Of a stretch of DNA of 42,751 nt, positions 2,029 to 41,676 are shown one piece after another. The position numbers and the translations under genes are program-made. The notes beneath the pieces were generated by a model. The model saw nothing but the letters and a program-made list of their open reading frames with translations, was not told the DNA's origin and searched no databases. The first letter of the stretch is position 1, and the number at the start of each line of letters is the position of its first letter. Source of the DNA: a bacterium (lineage in GTDB: Bacteria > Bacteroidota > Bacteroidia > Bacteroidales > UBA932); assembly GCA_963615405.1 (NCBI GenBank), contig CAVEHG010000001.1, positions 1 through 42,751 of the forward strand. Direction: 5' to 3'.

Positions 2029-2153
2029 TTAAATTGTTCTTAAACAGATGAAGCGCAAGGCATGCTTTGAAGATAAAACCGCAGCAACCTTTTGGTTGTG
2101 AGGATTTTATCAAGAAGCATAACGCAGCGATGCGCTGTTTAAGAACAATTTAA
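2029..2153. repeat. ~125-bp structured intergenic repeat (family A, copy 1) with 19-bp terminal inverted repeats
   Basis: ttaaattgttcttaaacag ... ctgtttaagaacaatttaa, with nested inner stems. Its reverse complement is homologous to 17846-17970. Confidence 0.85.
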
Positions 2154-3700
2154 ATGTAGGCGCCCATTTTGAGGATATTAACTTCTCCCTCAGTAAGGTA
2201 CCTCCATTCCCCCCTCTTAAGGTTCTTCTTCGTAAGCCCCGCAAAATAAACCCTGTCAAGAGCCTTCACGTCGTAGCCGAGCGACTCGAAAATGCGGCGC
2301 ACGATGCGGTTCTTTCCGGAGTGGATCTCGATTCCCATCTTTCGGTGGTCATTCTCCTCGATGTAGGAGAGAGCATCCGCAGCGACATCCCCGTCAGAGA
2401 GTGTCACACCCGCGAGAATCTTGTCGTAATCCTCCTGCGTGAGATCCTTGTCGAGGGAAACCTGATAAATCTTCTTTTTGTCATAGGCCGGATGAGTGAG
2501 TCTTTCGGCGATTTCCCCGTCGTTGGTGAACATCAGCACTCCGGTGGTGTTTTTGTCGAGACGGCCCACAGGGAACACCCTTGCCGTGCATTTCTTCAGC
2601 AGTTCCATCACGGTTTTCTCCGCGTGCGGATCCGAGGTCGTTGTGACGAAGCCCTTCGGCTTGTTCATAACGATATAGACCTTCTCTTCTCCGTGGAGCC
2701 TTTCCCCGTTGAAACGGACATCATCCTTGGTGACATTGATTTTCGTTCCGAGTTCAGTCACCACATTTCCGTTGACGGTCACGCAGCCGGCGAGAATGAA
2801 ATTGTCGGCCTCGCGCCTTGAGCATATTCCCGAATTGGCTATATACTTGTTCAGACGGCACTCCTCCTTGAACGGAATGGTCACCGTGTCATTGTCTGAA
2901 AGCCTCTCCTGCTCGAATTCCTTCCTCCTGTTGATCATCTGTCCGATTCCGCTCTCGTCCTCGGTGCGGAATGTCGGTTTGGGAGCCTGACGCCTGTTGC
3001 CTCTCTCGGCTCCAGGTCTTGCGTTCTTCTTGAATCCAGGCTTCCTGTCGCCGCCAAATGACGGTTTTCTGTCGCCGTAACTTTTCCTTTCCCCGCCAAA
3101 TGAAGATTTCCTGTCTCCACCAAACGACGGTTTCCTGTCGCCGTAGGAGCGGTGCTCTCCGTAACTGCTCTCACCCTCTGCCTGGCGCGGCTGCCTGTGC
3201 TCTCCGTAAGGCCTTCCGCTGCCGTGTGACGGCCTGTCTTCACCATAGGACTTGCCTTCTCCGTAAGGCCTTCCTTCGCCGAAGGATTTCCGTTCCCCGT
3301 AAGGCTTCCTATCTCCGTAGGCTTTTCTTTCTCCTCCGAACGACGGTTTTCTGTCGCCGAAGCTTCCGCCGGAATTCCTCCTGTCGCCGAAGCTCTTTCT
3401 TTCTCCGTAAGACTTTCTCTCCCCAAAGGATTTTCTTTCTCCGTAAGACCGGTGCTCGCCACTCTCAGCAAGCGGCGCCCTGTTGTCGGATGAAGTGATG
3501 TAAGGGCGGTCCTCCCTTTTTCTTGTGACGATGCGCCGTCTTCCTCCGTGTTCCGAGTTTGACCTGTAAGGTTTAGATTCGTTGCTGCCGTACTCTCTGC
3601 GGCCTTCGTTGCTGCCGTACTCTCTGCGGCCTTCGTTGCTGCCGTACTCCCTACGGCCTTCTGCGCTGTGGCCATTGCCACCTCTTTCGTTGTTTTCCAT
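2150..3700 (-). CDS. rluB: 23S rRNA pseudouridine synthase (RluB/RsuA family) with a long low-complexity N-terminal extension
   Basis: S4 domain RLNKYIANSGICSRREAD, NKPKG, catalytic VGRLD and GKNRIVRR. About 270 aa of G/R/S/Y/F/E/K repeats precede it. Confidence 0.85.
   Translation of the reverse strand: MENNERGGNGHSAEGRREYGSNEGRREYGSNEGRREYGSNESKPYRSNSEHGGRRRIVTRKREDRPYITSSDNRAPLAESGEHRSYGERKSFGERKSYGERKSFGDRRNSGGSFGDRKPSFGGERKAYGDRKPYGERKSFGEGRPYGEGKSYGEDRPSHGSGRPYGEHRQPRQAEGESSYGEHRSYGDRKPSFGGDRKSSFGGERKSYGDRKPSFGGDRKPGFKKNARPGAERGNRRQAPKPTFRTEDESGIGQMINRRKEFEQERLSDNDTVTIPFKEECRLNKYIANSGICSRREADNFILAGCVTVNGNVVTELGTKINVTKDDVRFNGERLHGEEKVYIVMNKPKGFVTTTSDPHAEKTVMELLKKCTARVFPVGRLDKNTTGVLMFTNDGEIAERLTHPAYDKKKIYQVSLDKDLTQEDYDKILAGVTLSDGDVAADALSYIEENDHRKMGIEIHSGKNRIVRRIFESLGYDVKALDRVYFAGLTKKNLKRGEWRYLTEGEVNILKMGAYI
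3578..3658. repeat. 3 x 27-bp coding tandem repeat (GRREYGSNE)
   Basis: ttcgttgctgccgtactctctgcggcc three times, the third slightly diverged. Confidence 0.9.
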
Positions 3701-3832: not shown

Positions 3833-4627
3833 TTAATTCAATTTGAATATATATGTGATCGTTCCGTATTGTTTCATCTTCGTCACATCCGTGGTCTTCG
3901 AGAACTTCGCCTGCATAGCCGCAATCCGCGCCGCGTTCCACAGAGTCTTGTCCGTGACAGTCGTCCCGTCGGCGCCCGGTCTTGCTTCAATGACCTTGCC
4001 ATTCTGATCGACAGCAATCCTGACTACGACTTTACCCTCTTTCTGTATGTTATAGGCCGGACGGGCGAGATGTCCCACCACGCTGCGTCCTTCGAGCCTT
4101 GCATTCGGCTCTCCCGAGATCTTTCCCCGCGTCACATTTCCGCTTGCGTGTCCCGTCTCAAGGAGGTCGCTTGCCTCCCTCGCGGTCTGAGGCGCGAGCG
4201 TGTCCTTGGCTTCAGGGTTGTCCGCCGCGTGAAACAGCGCCCTGCGGTTTATCTCCTTCTCCCGCTCCGGCTCGTTCACCTCCACGTCGCCGTCCGGTCC
4301 CACTGTGGCCTCCTGTGCGAGGTTCGCCTTCGTTCCCTCCAGCTGAGCCTTGGACATTTTCACGATTTCGTCGGGTTTCGTCCTGTCCGGCTCCGGAGAT
4401 TTCACCCGAGTCCGGCTCCAGTTTCTTTCCGGTTTCTCCTGTTTCACTTCCACCTCGTCAAACTCAAGCAGGATCTCCTCTCTTTCAGGCGGTGGCGGAT
4501 CGAGATAGGTCATTCCCGTAAAGCAGAGACATAACAGCGCCACAGCGTGAACCGCCGCGGTCAGCCCTATTCCGGCCGTTAGCGACAGCTTCTTCTGCTT
4601 CTCTCTGTCCTGCCTGTACGTTTCCAT
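3833..4627 (-). CDS. tonB: TonB-family energy transducer
   Basis: N-terminal TM with His (AVHAVALL), Pro-rich DPPPPE, C-terminal EGKVVVRIAVDQNGKV..GTITYIF, directly downstream of exbB-exbD. Confidence 0.8.
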   Translation of the reverse strand: METYRQDREKQKKLSLTAGIGLTAAVHAVALLCLCFTGMTYLDPPPPEREEILLEFDEVEVKQEKPERNWSRTRVKSPEPDRTKPDEIVKMSKAQLEGTKANLAQEATVGPDGDVEVNEPEREKEINRRALFHAADNPEAKDTLAPQTAREASDLLETGHASGNVTRGKISGEPNARLEGRSVVGHLARPAYNIQKEGKVVVRIAVDQNGKVIEARPGADGTTVTDKTLWNAARIAAMQAKFSKTTDVTKMKQYGTITYIFKLN

Positions 4628-4639
4628 TCTTATTCAATT

Positions 4640-5050
4640 TTACTCAGGGCGGGTGGCCATAATTACTTTATAATGGTTCCGCTTCGCAATATTCATCACC
4701 TGCACCACTTCCCCCACCTGCACCGTCTCGTCCGCATAGATCGAGAAAGTCGGGTCGCTCTCGCCCTGCAGCAGGTCAATCAGATTGTCCTCCACCTCGG
4801 CGAAAGGCACGGGATTCTTGTCCCCGTTGATGTGGTAGGTGTACTCCCCGTTCCCGTGGTCGGCAATCGAAACGCTCACCGTGGCCTTAGCGGACACCTG
4901 CCCCGTACTCTTCGGGAGCAGAAGTTTCAGCGCATTCGGGCTTATCAGCGTCGATGTGACCAGGAAGAAGATGAGGAGCAGGAACACGATGTCAGTCATC
5001 GACGACATCGAGAATCCTGAATCTATCTTCGTTGTTCTTCTTATAGCCAT
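4640..5050 (-). CDS. exbD: Biopolymer transporter ExbD
   Basis: SSMTDIVFLLLIFFLV TM motif with the conserved Asp, and IYADETV..VVQVMNI. Confidence 0.92.
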   Translation of the reverse strand: MAIRRTTKIDSGFSMSSMTDIVFLLLIFFLVTSTLISPNALKLLLPKSTGQVSAKATVSVSIADHGNGEYTYHINGDKNPVPFAEVEDNLIDLLQGESDPTFSIYADETVQVGEVVQVMNIAKRNHYKVIMATRPE

Positions 5051-5087
5051 AGTCTCAAAAGCTGTTCAGAAATGTTCCGGCCGTCAT

Positions 5088-5807
5088 CTATTCCTGTTTC
5101 CCGCTCTCCGCAGGCTCGTGGAGAAGATCCATGAAATCGATTGTCACCGACTCCATCTTGAACACGAGGTTTGAAATCTGGGAGGTCAGGTAGTTGTATG
5201 CGAAATATGCGAGAATTCCGACGACAAGACCGCCTACAGTGGTTACCATCGCCTCATAGATACCTCCGGAAAGAAGGGATATGTCTATGTTGTTGCCTGC
5301 GGTGGACATATTGAAGAATGCCCGGATCATACCCGTCACCGTTCCGAGGAATCCGATCATCGGGGCGCCTCCGGCAATGGTCGCCAGCATCGGCAGGCCC
5401 TTCTCAAGCCTTGCCACCTCGACGCTTCCCATATTCTCGACAGCCGTCTGGATGTCCTGAAGCGGCCTTCCGATTCTCTCGATTCCCTTTTCGACAAGCC
5501 TTGCCGACGGAGTGTCATACTTCTGGCAGAGCGAAACCGCCGACTTGATCTTTCCCTCGTGAATGAGATCCCTGATCTCGTTCATGAAATTCTTTTCCAC
5601 CTTTCCGGCTTTGTGGATCATCCACCATCTGCTCGCGAAAATGTAGACCGCGATGATTGAAAGCAGAAGCAGCACAATCATCAGCCATCCGCCGGCTTTC
5701 GCCAGCTCAAAGTAAGACATTTTAACCTCCTGCTGCACAGGAGCCGCCACGACCTCCGAAACCGTCGCAGCCGTGTCCGCAATGCTCTGAAGTAAACTCA
5801 ATGACAT
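5088..5807 (-). CDS. exbB: MotA/TolQ/ExbB proton channel protein
   Basis: LATIAGGAPMIGFLGTVTGMIRAF and GGIYEAMVTTVGGLVVGI. Confidence 0.93.
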   Translation of the reverse strand: MSLSLLQSIADTAATVSEVVAAPVQQEVKMSYFELAKAGGWLMIVLLLLSIIAVYIFASRWWMIHKAGKVEKNFMNEIRDLIHEGKIKSAVSLCQKYDTPSARLVEKGIERIGRPLQDIQTAVENMGSVEVARLEKGLPMLATIAGGAPMIGFLGTVTGMIRAFFNMSTAGNNIDISLLSGGIYEAMVTTVGGLVVGILAYFAYNYLTSQISNLVFKMESVTIDFMDLLHEPAESGKQE

Positions 5808-5838: not shown

Positions 5839-5846
5839 CAAAGATA
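5839..5846 (-). promoter_or_regulatory. Bacteroidetes sigma-ABfr -7 element TATCTTTG for exbB-exbD-tonB
   Basis: caaagata on + is a TAnnTTTG match ~32 nt upstream of the exbB ATG. Confidence 0.7.
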
Positions 5847-5847
5847 C

Positions 5848-5889
5848 AAAAAAAAGTGAAACTCGCTTGATTCACACCGAGCGAGTTTC
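5848..5889 (-). terminator. Intrinsic terminator
   Basis: Minus strand reads gaaactcgct-cggtgtgaatca-agcgagtttc, then ac and 8 T. Confidence 0.85.
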
Positions 5890-5930
5890 GATTCTAACCT
5901 AAAACTTAACCTATGAAAAAACTATTCGGG
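5848..5930 (-). ncRNA. Candidate sigma54-dependent small RNA with an anti-'ATGAAAAAA' seed
   Basis: Lies between a consensus -24/-12 promoter and a terminator. The body gaatagttttttcataggttaagttttaggttag is U-rich and apparently unstructured. Confidence 0.6.
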
Positions 5931-5931
5931 T

Positions 5932-6672
5932 TCACTCTTTTGCAAGGTTTGTGCCAAAACCTGCAAACCGGGCTGAATATTTCATTTTGCGGAGAATTTC
6001 CGGCACATCGGCGATGGAGCCTGCCTCAAAGACCCTGTCCGAATCCGGCATCTCGGCAACTTCGTGCACCCAGACCGTTCCGTGCGGGACGTGAATCGCA
6101 CGTCCTCCGACTTCAATCACCGGAGCTATGTCCGATTTGACGGAATTCCCGACCATAATCAACGCCTCCGGCGCCATATCGAATTTCTGGCAGAGTTCCA
6201 GATAGTTCCTCCGGTCCTTTTCTTCAAGCACCTCGATGTGGTGGAAAAATTTTGAAAGACCGCTCTGCCGGTACTTGGTCAGCTGCTCGGTGAGGTCGCC
6301 CTTTGTCGCGACCGCGAGTTCATATCCCATATCCCTGACTTCCCCAAGCACGCTTTCGACTCCGTCAATCATCTCGAAACGGTGGTAGGCGAGGTCTGTG
6401 ACGATTTTCTTTATCCCGAAGTACATTTCCGAACTCAGGCTACCTCCGCACAGTTCAATCGCCGTGTCGAGCATTCCGAGCATATAAGTTTTGGAACCGT
6501 AGCCGAAAATCGGAATATTGCCTTCCTGCCGCGCCCAGAGAGTCTGCTGTATGGTTGCAGCGTCGGCCTCCCGGTGGAGAAGCTCGGCAAATTCCTTCTC
6601 GGCGTTTCTGAAATAGCCCTCGTTTTCCCAGAGGGTGTCGTCCGCGTCAAAAAAGATTATTTTCTTTGTCAT
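5932..6672 (-). CDS. HAD-superfamily hydrolase
   Basis: Motif I FFDADDTLW, ATKGD, and motif IV MVGNSVKSDI. Confidence 0.88.
   Translation of the reverse strand: MTKKIIFFDADDTLWENEGYFRNAEKEFAELLHREADAATIQQTLWARQEGNIPIFGYGSKTYMLGMLDTAIELCGGSLSSEMYFGIKKIVTDLAYHRFEMIDGVESVLGEVRDMGYELAVATKGDLTEQLTKYRQSGLSKFFHHIEVLEEKDRRNYLELCQKFDMAPEALIMVGNSVKSDIAPVIEVGGRAIHVPHGTVWVHEVAEMPDSDRVFEAGSIADVPEILRKMKYSARFAGFGTNLAKE
5941..5957 (-). promoter_or_regulatory. sigma54 (RpoN)-type -24/-12 promoter
   Basis: Minus strand TTGGCAC-AAACC-TTGCA matches TGGCAC-N5-TTGC with exact GG/GC spacing. Predicted +1 is near 5930. Confidence 0.7.
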
Positions 6673-6692: not shown

Positions 6693-7502
6693 TCAGTCCT
6701 TTATCGTTTCCACGGTTTTATCCGTTATCCTGACTGTCTCTTCTGTTTTCTCCGCTTTCCTGACAACGTCTTCATCTTTCTCCGTTACCGTGCCTGTCTC
6801 TTCGGGTTTGTCCGTCTCCCGGATTGTCTCTTCCGGTTTTCCTGTCACTGCGGAGCTGTCGGCAGGAGTCGCCACCGGCTTCACGGTGATGATGCGTATG
6901 TCCTTAACCGGACGGTCCCGTCTGTCGGTCGGGGCTGCGGCAATCTTGTCAATGACATCCAGCCCCTCGACCGTCTCTCCGAACACGGTGTACTGCCCGT
7001 CGAGGTGGATGCAGTTCATCTCGTCCTGAACAATGTAGAACTGCGAGCCGCTCGAAGACTTGCGCGGGTTGGCGACATCCCCGCGGCGTGCGGCTGCGAG
7101 CGCGCCCTTCTTGTGATAGTATTCGTTCACGAACTCCGCCGGAATCGTGTAGTCGGGACCGCCCTGTCCGTAAAGTTCAGCCTTTGAGCTGTCGCGTGTG
7201 TAAGGGTCGCCCGTCTGAATCATAAAGCCGTTGATCACCCTGTGGAAAAGCAGGCTGTCGTAGTAGTGCGCATTTGCGAGCTTGCAGAAATTGTCCCTGT
7301 GCTTCGGGGTCTTGCTGTAGAGTTTCACGCGGATTGTTCCCTCCGTCGTGACGATGTCGAATTCCGGTTCGCTGTTCTGTACCATAATTATACTGTCTTT
7401 CTGTTCTTCCGCGATTTTCTTCCCGCGTCTGCCATTGCCGCAGGAGGCGGCACATAAACATACAGTTATGGCTGCCGCTAAAATGATTCCTGTTCTTTTC
7501 AT
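6693..7502 (-). CDS. Cyclophilin-type peptidyl-prolyl isomerase, probable lipoprotein, with a repetitive T/E/K tail
   Basis: FHRVINGFMIQTGDP, SSGSQFYIV and HLDGQYTVFG. N-terminal signal with lipobox-like AASC. Confidence 0.9.
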   Translation of the reverse strand: MKRTGIILAAAITVCLCAASCGNGRRGKKIAEEQKDSIIMVQNSEPEFDIVTTEGTIRVKLYSKTPKHRDNFCKLANAHYYDSLLFHRVINGFMIQTGDPYTRDSSKAELYGQGGPDYTIPAEFVNEYYHKKGALAAARRGDVANPRKSSSGSQFYIVQDEMNCIHLDGQYTVFGETVEGLDVIDKIAAAPTDRRDRPVKDIRIITVKPVATPADSSAVTGKPEETIRETDKPEETGTVTEKDEDVVRKAEKTEETVRITDKTVETIKD

Positions 7503-32673: not shown

Positions 32674-32943
32674 CCCAATACGGGTAACCCACGAACACCC
32701 AACGCATTAGGGTACATGCGATAGTTAAATTGGATAACTCAAGTTTCGCAAATGCGAAACTTGACAAGGGCTTCTGCCCGCCGGCCGTGAGGCCGAAAAA
32801 ATCCCCCTGACAGGGGGTGCAGGGGGTTCAGAAGAAAAAAAGTGCGTGGGATTTAACCCACCCCAATACGGGTAACCCACGAACACCCAACGCATTAGGG
32901 TACATGCGAAACTTAAATGTATAGCGAAATTTAAATTGGATAA
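32674..32943. mobile_element. MITE-like element (family B, ~32735-32921) with an upstream 48-bp partial duplicate
   Basis: Imperfect TIR taactcaagtttcgca / tgcgaaacttaaatgta, and internal hairpins (aagtttcgcaaatgcgaaactt; ccccctgacaggggg). 48-bp exact repeat 32674-32721 = 32862-32909. ttaaattggataa occurs at 32725 and 32931. Confidence 0.65.
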
Positions 32944-41655: not shown

Positions 41656-41676
41656 TAATTTAAGTTTCGCATGTAC
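41656..41676 (-). repeat. Isolated right end of a family-B element
   Basis: The reverse complement of 41658-41676 is gtacatgcgaaacttaaat, identical to 32900-32918. Confidence 0.75.

What the first reader, a model, noticed from the sequence alone, without database searches (positions are those of the whole stretch)
5848..5957. Hidden sigma54-driven sRNA whose seed is antisense to 'MKK' translation starts
Seen: the minus strand has a consensus-spaced RpoN promoter (TTGGCAC-AAACC-TTGCA, 5957-5941) inside the last codons of the HAD gene. It is followed by ~40 nt of U-rich sequence (GAAUAGUUUUUUCAUAGGUUAAGUUUUAGGUUAG) and a 10-bp stem/8-U terminator, a self-contained ~83-nt unit. The seed's complement, cttaacctATGAAAAAActatt, mimics an AT-rich Bacteroidetes initiation region followed by Met-Lys-Lys. 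Known: sigma54 promoters have TGGCAC-N5-TTGC and need a bEBP activator; Bacteroidetes largely lack SD-led initiation; many of their signal peptides begin MKK. Inference: a stress-activated trans-acting sRNA that blocks start codons of many secreted or envelope mRNAs, sitting just upstream of the exbB-exbD-tonB promoter. It may be related to described Bacteroides sRNAs; I could not check this.
Basis: partly seen in the sequence, partly recalled or inferred. Interest (0 to 1): 0.8.

Follow-up and report, generated by a model that had tools for sequence, protein, structure and literature searches.

The report
Sigma54-promoter RNA masking start codons
This is a conserved, roughly 80-letter regulatory RNA gene of Bacteroidales bacteria, a distant relative of the known FopS RNAs that cover the start codons of surface-protein messages, but it carries the promoter type that these bacteria put in front of their heat-shock genes.

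Summary
Observation confirmed. The unit (sigma54 box, U-rich seed, hairpin, U8) is a real, conserved sRNA gene: box plus seed occurs in 179 of 301 family genomes (reversed control 5); a body-only model finds it in 109 of 120; the hairpin covaries while the seed stays unpaired. It is a divergent FopS/GibS (R1-seed) relative, 25 bits against Rfam's 56 cut-off. New against the papers read: this subtype carries a sigma54 box (51 of 61 seed-selected copies), canonical FopS never did (0 of 31), and the same box precedes groES and dnaK in 10 of 10 genus cases. The 5' seed reads ATGAAAAA starts, 60 of 78 of which encode signal-peptide-like proteins; the best contiguous match is a SusC. Against: no expression data; energy-based target ranking shows no envelope enrichment; no activator in this 76%-complete assembly and no shared enhancer. 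Corrections: the exbB link and the promoter-inside-HAD are local accidents. The scan noted a tandem relative on other DNA before (e1-6975473). New variant of a known kind.

The parts
5951..5957 (-). sigma54 -24 box (TTGGCAC)
   Evidence: conserved at fixed spacing
5941..5945 (-). sigma54 -12 box (TTGCA)
   Evidence: T and G invariant, other positions vary as in groES/dnaK boxes
5927..5929 (-). predicted transcription start; G5927 most likely
   Evidence: mapped B. thetaiotaomicron starts lie 13 nt after the box (groES, dnaK, clpB) = 5929; conservation begins at a pyrimidine-G step 14-15 nt after the box, and sigmaA-driven sister copies put the same G 5 nt after their -7 box. Inferred, not mapped
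5916..5927 (-). 5' seed half, antisense to codons 2-5 (reads Lys-Lys-Leu-Phe type starts)
5913..5915 (-). CAU, antisense to the start codon
   Evidence: invariant in 41 of 41 aligned copies, by selection
5894..5912 (-). 3' seed half (two GUU-containing repeats), homologous to FopS R1' extension; faces the A-rich region upstream of start codons
   Evidence: target tuning not detected in this genome
5858..5889 (-). terminator hairpin, 10 bp + mismatch + 3 bp, GUGA loop
   Evidence: 12 of 12 consensus pairs show compensatory changes in 50 copies; GNRA loop in 56 of 117 copies
5848..5855 (-). U8 tract; doubles as the AT-rich spacer before the exbB promoter
5839..5846 (-). sigmaA (sigmaABfr) -7 box TAnnTTTG of exbB, independent of the sRNA
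   Evidence: same box stands before most of the 29 other exbB genes without the sRNA; consensus from PMC7366714
5932..6672 (-). HAD-family hydrolase gene; C-terminus extended by about 15-25 codons over the promoter in this genome only
6693..7502 (-). cyclophilin PPIase gene; usual upstream neighbour of the sRNA in the genus, with or without HAD between
3833..5807 (-). exbB-exbD-tonB, downstream neighbours here; not part of the element

Best explanation
A stand-alone, about 80-nt trans-acting sRNA of the FopS/GibS (R1-seed) superfamily. Shown by comparison: conserved sigma54 box, fixed start, invariant single-stranded 34-nt seed, covarying terminator. Inferred: sigma54 polymerase, switched on by one of the family's enhancer-binding proteins, starts at about 5927-5929; the terminator is shared with the upstream PPIase-HAD message. 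The CAU and the U-run pair with AUG and the following Lys codons; because those starts belong mostly to signal-peptide proteins (SusC, SusD, lipoproteins, outer-membrane proteins), the RNA blocks initiation on a class of envelope messages, as FopS-10 does on susC. Since sigma54 is the chaperone/protease sigma in this genus, the likely purpose is to slow envelope-protein synthesis under stress. Odds: real sRNA about 0.9; sigma54-dependent about 0.8; represses by pairing over start codons about 0.8; broad signal-peptide regulon about 0.55; stress-induced about 0.55.
For: Conservation and controls: (29 of the 30 best body-only hits have the box). Structure. Homology to FopS: and the published FopS seed and its pairing over AUG-AAA-AA starts; FopS repression of susC shown in PMC11697453. 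Mobility as a unit between unrelated neighbours. rpoN present; enhancer-binding proteins in 80 of 80 near-complete family genomes; box before groES and dnaK in 10 of 10 cases and before lon here. Targets: ATGAAAAA opens 78 of 1232 called genes (6.3% against 0.25% of 1200 internal Met codons), 60 of 78 with a hydrophobic signal-like stretch against 25% of the rest; 53 starts against 2 internal sites give 9 or more contiguous Watson-Crick pairs, 40 of 53 signal-like; 0 of 300 shuffles of the 5' half match signal-peptide starts as well. Top contiguous match is a SusC above the family cut-off; 4 of 4 hand-picked 9-bp matches were SusD.
Against: No transcript evidence at all. Free-energy ranking does not single out envelope genes: start regions pair no better than mid-gene windows (-11.51 against -11.48 kcal/mol) and the top 50 hold 22% signal-like genes against 18% background and 16 +/- 7% for 30 shuffled seeds; the top 20 in-register duplexes hold 6 (background 29%). 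The 3' half pairs slightly worse with real leaders than with shuffled ones (-6.10 against -6.30) and 58 of 300 shuffles equal it in register. Longest Watson-Crick run is only 10 bp of mostly A-U pairs. No enhancer-binding protein in this assembly. The palindrome beside 10 of 10 heat-shock boxes is absent from 142 of 142 sRNA boxes and no other upstream motif emerged, so co-induction with chaperones is not shown. Gene starts and signal peptides are my own crude calls.
Confidence: 0.68

Rival explanations
1. A base-pairing sRNA with a few specific targets (for example one or two susC operons); the match to Met-Lys-Lys starts is a by-product of those targets and of descent from FopS-like RNAs, and no class-wide envelope control exists.
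For: Energy rankings show no class enrichment; GibS and FopS share R1 yet regulate different targets (PMC11697453); short A-U duplexes alone are weak.
Against: Seed is nearly invariant across many genera whose susC sets must differ; 5' variants stay antisense to common N-termini, MKKLF and MKNF; FopS-10 bound 9 tested leaders.
Confidence: 0.15
2. The RNA is real but the sigma54 box is not its switch: the RNA comes mainly as the processed 3' end of the upstream message, or sigma54 polymerase sits there as a silent block.
For: Upstream gene co-oriented in 28 of 30 loci; no terminator between HAD and the seed here; no shared enhancer; no activator found in this assembly; sister copies with the same body use sigmaA.
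Against: Box kept at fixed distance to the first conserved base behind unrelated upstream genes; its distance agrees with mapped sigma54-type starts; copies carry one promoter type or the other, rarely neither.
Confidence: 0.1
3. A protein decoy: the U-rich strand titrates an RNA-binding protein rather than pairing with mRNAs.
For: FopS binds the RRM protein RbpB; weak target statistics.
Against: RRM-1 proteins were not found in 7 of 7 genus genomes searched yet the seed is invariant there; exact antisense register to AUG plus Lys codons is not needed by a decoy.
Confidence: 0.04
4. Only the HAD 3' UTR and terminator, a 5' leader of exbB, or a small plus-strand gene starting MKKLF.
For: Position between HAD and exbB; an open plus-strand frame begins at the antisense ATG.
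Against: Same unit follows PPIase, rimM, TolC, uvrD and other genes; absent after 11 of 11 distant HAD genes; not before 29 other exbB genes; antisense frames have median 20 codons, 36 of 115 at most 15.
Confidence: 0.03

Closest known systems
FopS family of paralogous sRNAs, B. thetaiotaomicron (Rfam RF04319; PMC11697453)
   Same: Unpaired 5' seed with U-run, CAU and the AGGUUA end, then a GUGA-capped terminator; about 22 of 27 core seed positions match the published consensus (my hand count); pairing predicted over the start codon; SusC among best matches.
   Different: 25 bits here and 28-38 for five relatives against cut-off 56 and 72-87 for three true members; sigma54 box instead of sigmaABfr (0 of 31 canonical copies have it); 1-5 copies found per genome, not 12-15 (a lower bound); 5' end three to five bases longer; RbpB-like protein not found in the genus.
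GibS (RF04182) and BTnc231 (RF04180)
   Same: R1 seed at the 5' end; GibS represses by pairing at initiation regions and uses an alternative promoter (PMC7366714).
   Different: No GibS match in the genome at E 1; BTnc231 15.7 bits against 80.4; both are 145-205 nt with further domains; the bases before their mapped starts hold no TGGCA box, so GibS's PM2 promoter is not the sigma54 box.
Envelope-stress sRNAs of enterobacteria (MicL, MicA, RybB under sigmaE; sigma54-driven GlmY) - recalled, except GlmY in a search listing
   Same: Alternative-sigma sRNA as the repressing arm that damps envelope-protein synthesis; MicL also starts inside the upstream gene.
   Different: No sequence kinship tested or expected; Hfq-dependent; their seeds read individual leaders, not start codon plus signal-peptide codons.

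Membership tests
FopS (RF04319) | Score at or above the Rfam gathering cut-off (56 bits) | tested here: not met
   25.1 bits; relatives 28-38 bits, some unlisted
FopS (RF04319) | R1/R1' seed at the 5' end | tested here: met
   alignment to model positions 1-35; published consensus; diverged in the 3' half
FopS (RF04319) | [quoted passage not shown] | tested here: met
   (no consensus pair in the seed; 12 of 12 hairpin pairs compensated); single-sequence MFE shows a weak 5' hairpin
FopS (RF04319) | Canonical sigmaABfr promoter | tested here: not met
   no TAnnTTTG before 5927; sigma54 box instead; sigmaA form exists in sister copies, 44 of 53 GAAG-type
FopS (RF04319) | 12-15 paralogues per genome | tested here: not met
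   1 in this 76%-complete assembly, 1-5 in 109 genomes; only 37 candidates scored per genome
FopS (RF04319) | Binding by RbpB | not testable with these tools
   RRM-1 gene not found in 7 of 7 genus genomes, found in 52 of 80 family genomes
FopS (RF04319) | Represses susC translation by pairing over the start codon | tested here: inconclusive
   best contiguous match is a SusC start; energy ranking unenriched; 12 other large F-ending proteins with ATG starts pair 3-7 bp Watson-Crick
GibS (RF04182) | About 145 nt, second seed R2, PM2 promoter | tested here: not met
   unit is about 80 nt
sigma54-dependent promoter | -24/-12 boxes with 5-nt spacer at the right distance from the start | tested here: met
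sigma54-dependent promoter | rpoN and an enhancer-binding activator in the genome | tested here: inconclusive
   rpoN 413.6 bits; no activator in this assembly, present in 80 of 80 near-complete relatives
sigma54-dependent promoter | Loss of transcript without RpoN | not testable with these tools
   needs genetics

The most novel reading that the evidence does not exclude
FopS is one branch of an order-wide class of 'anti-signal-peptide' RNAs that recognise export-bound messages through the start codon and the Lys-Lys codons themselves, in bacteria without Shine-Dalgarno sites. One seed is plugged into different sigma factors (sigmaA, sigma54); the sigma54 branch is the repressing arm of the Bacteroidales protein-stress response, a class-wide brake on envelope-protein synthesis that works without Hfq, ProQ or, in this genus, RbpB.
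Probability: 0.35. Interest if true: 0.82.

Novelty: new variant of a known kind. Interest (0 to 1): 0.6.

Why it matters
It extends the best-studied Bacteroides sRNA mechanism to a large, mostly uncultured gut and rumen family where Rfam misses it, ties it to sigma54, whose regulon in Bacteroidales is barely described, and offers a testable reason why R1-seed RNAs hit outer-membrane and PUL genes: signal-peptide N-termini give those messages a shared nucleotide tag. The sigmaA and sigma54 sister copies with one body are a natural case of promoter swapping.

Tried and rejected
Expression: no RNA holder listed; no evidence either way, read laying not used. GibS promoter PM2 as a hidden sigma54 promoter: rejected, no TGGCA before its mapped start (the supplement table labels GibS 'PM1' while the text says PM2). 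Synteny with exbB: rejected. Whole-seed energy ranking of targets: uninformative. Enrichment of AACTTAA in leaders (66 against 6 expected), complementary to the seed's 3' half: set aside because most cases come from a dispersed repeat. Shared enhancer with heat-shock genes: rejected. Antisense small protein: rejected. Model R1 came out without base pairs, so score sequence only and weak order-level hits may be chance. My tail-folding statistics (stem ends, U counts) were distorted by a greedy pattern and are not used. Flanking-gene picks are crude; 39 of them were checked with Pfam. Sigma70 promoter scan does not apply to this phylum. Phage collections: 8 seed matches in viral contigs, not followed up.

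Full report
1. Observation. The strand folds better than 200 of 200 shuffles. The box alone is chance-level: one in this genome, 1.6-3.2 expected, and no commoner than its reversed control in the genus.

2. It is a conserved gene. Box plus seed start occurs in 179 of 301 genomes of the family, the reversed pattern in 5. Of 122 distinct copies, 119 had enough upstream DNA; 56 carry a sigma54 box with at most one mismatch, all 23-28 nt before the CAU, against 3 of 1721 control windows. The copies split in two: the window's ATAG type has the box in 51 of 61, the GAAG type in 5 of 53 and a sigmaA -7 box in 44 of 53 (relaxed patterns; 5 others). Both promoter types point to the same pyrimidine-G step as start: 14-15 nt after the -12 box or mostly 5 nt after the -7 box. 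Mapped B. thetaiotaomicron starts calibrate this: 13 nt for groES, dnaK and clpB, 5 nt for BTnc231 (supplement of PMC7366714). I predict +1 at 5927-5929 and an 80-82-nt RNA. In 50 aligned copies the seed is near-invariant with no consensus pair, while 12 of 12 hairpin pairs show compensatory changes. A sequence-only model of the body finds 1-5 copies in 109 of 120 near-complete family genomes and one here; 29 of its 30 best hits have the sigma54 box. Named records with the same unit are Bacteroidales, among them Candidatus Cryptobacteroides and Coprenecus.

3. Context. The unit follows the HAD gene in 7 of 7 close orthologues and 0 of 11 distant ones; in those seven the promoter is intergenic and HAD is 221-232 aa, so the 246-aa protein and the 'hidden' promoter here come from a local loss of the stop. 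Elsewhere it follows cyclophilin, rimM, TolC-type, uvrD, BNR-repeat and other genes; the upstream gene is co-oriented in 28 of 30, the downstream one convergent in 19 of 30 (crude picks). It is not within 420 nt of 29 of 29 other exbB genes; in the nearest relative G026 the order is kept but an ATPase gene lies between. It is therefore neither a HAD UTR nor an exbB leader. The antisense frame is not kept.

4. Sigma54. rpoN is present. No enhancer-binding protein was found in this 76%-complete assembly; 80 of 80 near-complete relatives have at least one. The same box precedes groES and dnaK in 10 of 10 cases from five genus genomes and lon here, as reported for Flavobacterium (PMC9723704). But the palindrome found beside all 10 heat-shock boxes is absent (at most one mismatch) from 142 of 142 sRNA boxes, and no other upstream motif emerged: same sigma, probably another signal.

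5. Targets. With my own gene calls (1445 genes), ATGAAAAA opens 78 of 1232 ATG genes against 0.25% of 1200 internal Met codons; 60 of 78 have a hydrophobic uncharged stretch (scored from residue 5 on) against 25% of the rest. Nine or more contiguous Watson-Crick pairs form with 53 starts and 2 internal sites; 40 of 53 are signal-like; no shuffle of the 5' half among 300 fits signal-like starts as well. Of the 13 starts with 10 pairs, the best is a SusC; others include an outer-membrane barrel, a second ExbB and two peptidases, but also GlgB, RidA and a primase-like protein; four further hand-picked matches are SusD. Against this: whole-seed energies do not favour start regions over mid-gene windows nor enrich signal-like genes beyond shuffled seeds, and the 3' half shows no tuning to leaders. 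The class-wide model thus rests on the 5' half and on homology.

6. Known relatives. Rfam's best hit is FopS, 25.1 bits against 56. PMC11697453 describes FopS as 14 paralogues with an unpaired R1' seed and terminator, sigmaABfr promoters, bile induction, RbpB binding and repression of susC by pairing at the start; its predicted targets pair over AUG-AAA-AA starts, though the main text never mentions signal peptides, envelope or RpoN. Canonical FopS seeds occur in 40 of 251 order genomes, not in the three from this family, and 31 of 31 inspected have a sigmaA box, none sigma54. GibS and BTnc231 share R1 but not the promoter. Further R1-like RNAs are spread over the order (74 of 150 genomes at E 0.01, weak hits unverified), mostly without the sigma54 box (2 of 28 inspected, one from this family); strict box plus seed was found in 3 of 248 genomes outside the family, one convincing. 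So it works like FopS but fails three membership tests (score, promoter, copy number).

7. Novelty. Nine paper searches showed no sigma54-driven Bacteroidota sRNA and no account of this subfamily; the library lacks most subscription papers, and a 2022 comparative-genomics paper on Bacteroides sRNAs (recalled, not read) may bear on this. Seen: PMC11697453 abstract, Results parts 2-3 of 4, Discussion, one Methods section, passages, part 1 of 5 of one supplement and a supplement search; PMC7366714 passages, sections 8 and 12, searches and parts of three supplements (its main supplementary PDF was too large and all figures are unseen, so the PM2 logo is inferred from sequences); PMC9723704, PMC12316311, PMC10994844, PMC13750123 and bioRxiv 2023.12.22.572801 passages only (preprint supplements closed); PMC6847099 abstract. 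I saw such tandem copies (L121, L166, L175, L189) and a divergent membrane-anchored ORF beside two of them, unnamed by any profile; the loci of this family have other neighbours.

8. Verdict. A real sRNA gene, new variant of the FopS/GibS kind with a sigma54 promoter. Mechanism by homology is strong; sigma54 dependence is likely; stress induction and a broad signal-peptide regulon are plausible but unproven. Interest 0.6.

Noticed in passing
G000:C34:167-179, C177:492-504, C96:199-211; loci L429-L439: Palindrome TGACA-N3-TGTCA 11-23 nt upstream of the sigma54 -24 box of groES and dnaK in 10 of 10 cases; 9 perfect sites in the genome, one downstream of the lon box. Candidate operator of an unnamed heat-shock regulator.
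   Followed up: partly
window 32740-32763, 32898-32916, 41660-41671: Dispersed repeat ending TGCGAAACTTAA, 69 matches in the genome, in a hairpin and a non-hairpin form, often ending 10-15 nt before start codons; may supply initiation signals.
   Followed up: partly
genus g1, G000 and six others: RRM-1 (RbpB-like) genes not found in 7 of 7 genus genomes searched and 6 of 6 of genus g48, though present in 52 of 80 family genomes.
   Followed up: partly
L493, L499, L501-L503, L505, L506, L508, L509 at about 1500-1575: A third R1-like subfamily (seed continuing AGTTAAGGTTT, longer A-rich leader) in genomes that also hold canonical FopS; at most 33.5 bits against the FopS model, no other Rfam family.
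   Followed up: partly
L121, L166, L175, L189, L388: Tandem or clustered sigma54-type copies in other Bacteroidales lineages.
   Followed up: partly
L187/L188, L265/L266, L286/L287; G216, G111, G133, G306: In genus g48-type genomes two near-identical copies stand back to back about 5 kb apart, one after rimM and facing a phosphomannomutase gene: perhaps an inversion or duplication boundary.
   Followed up: no
L378-L385: Eight seed matches in viral contigs, mostly without the sigma54 box; FopS too was reported in a phage.
   Followed up: no
window 2150-3700: Pseudouridine synthase with a long repetitive Arg/Gly/Ser-rich N-terminal extension of about 270 residues.
   Followed up: no
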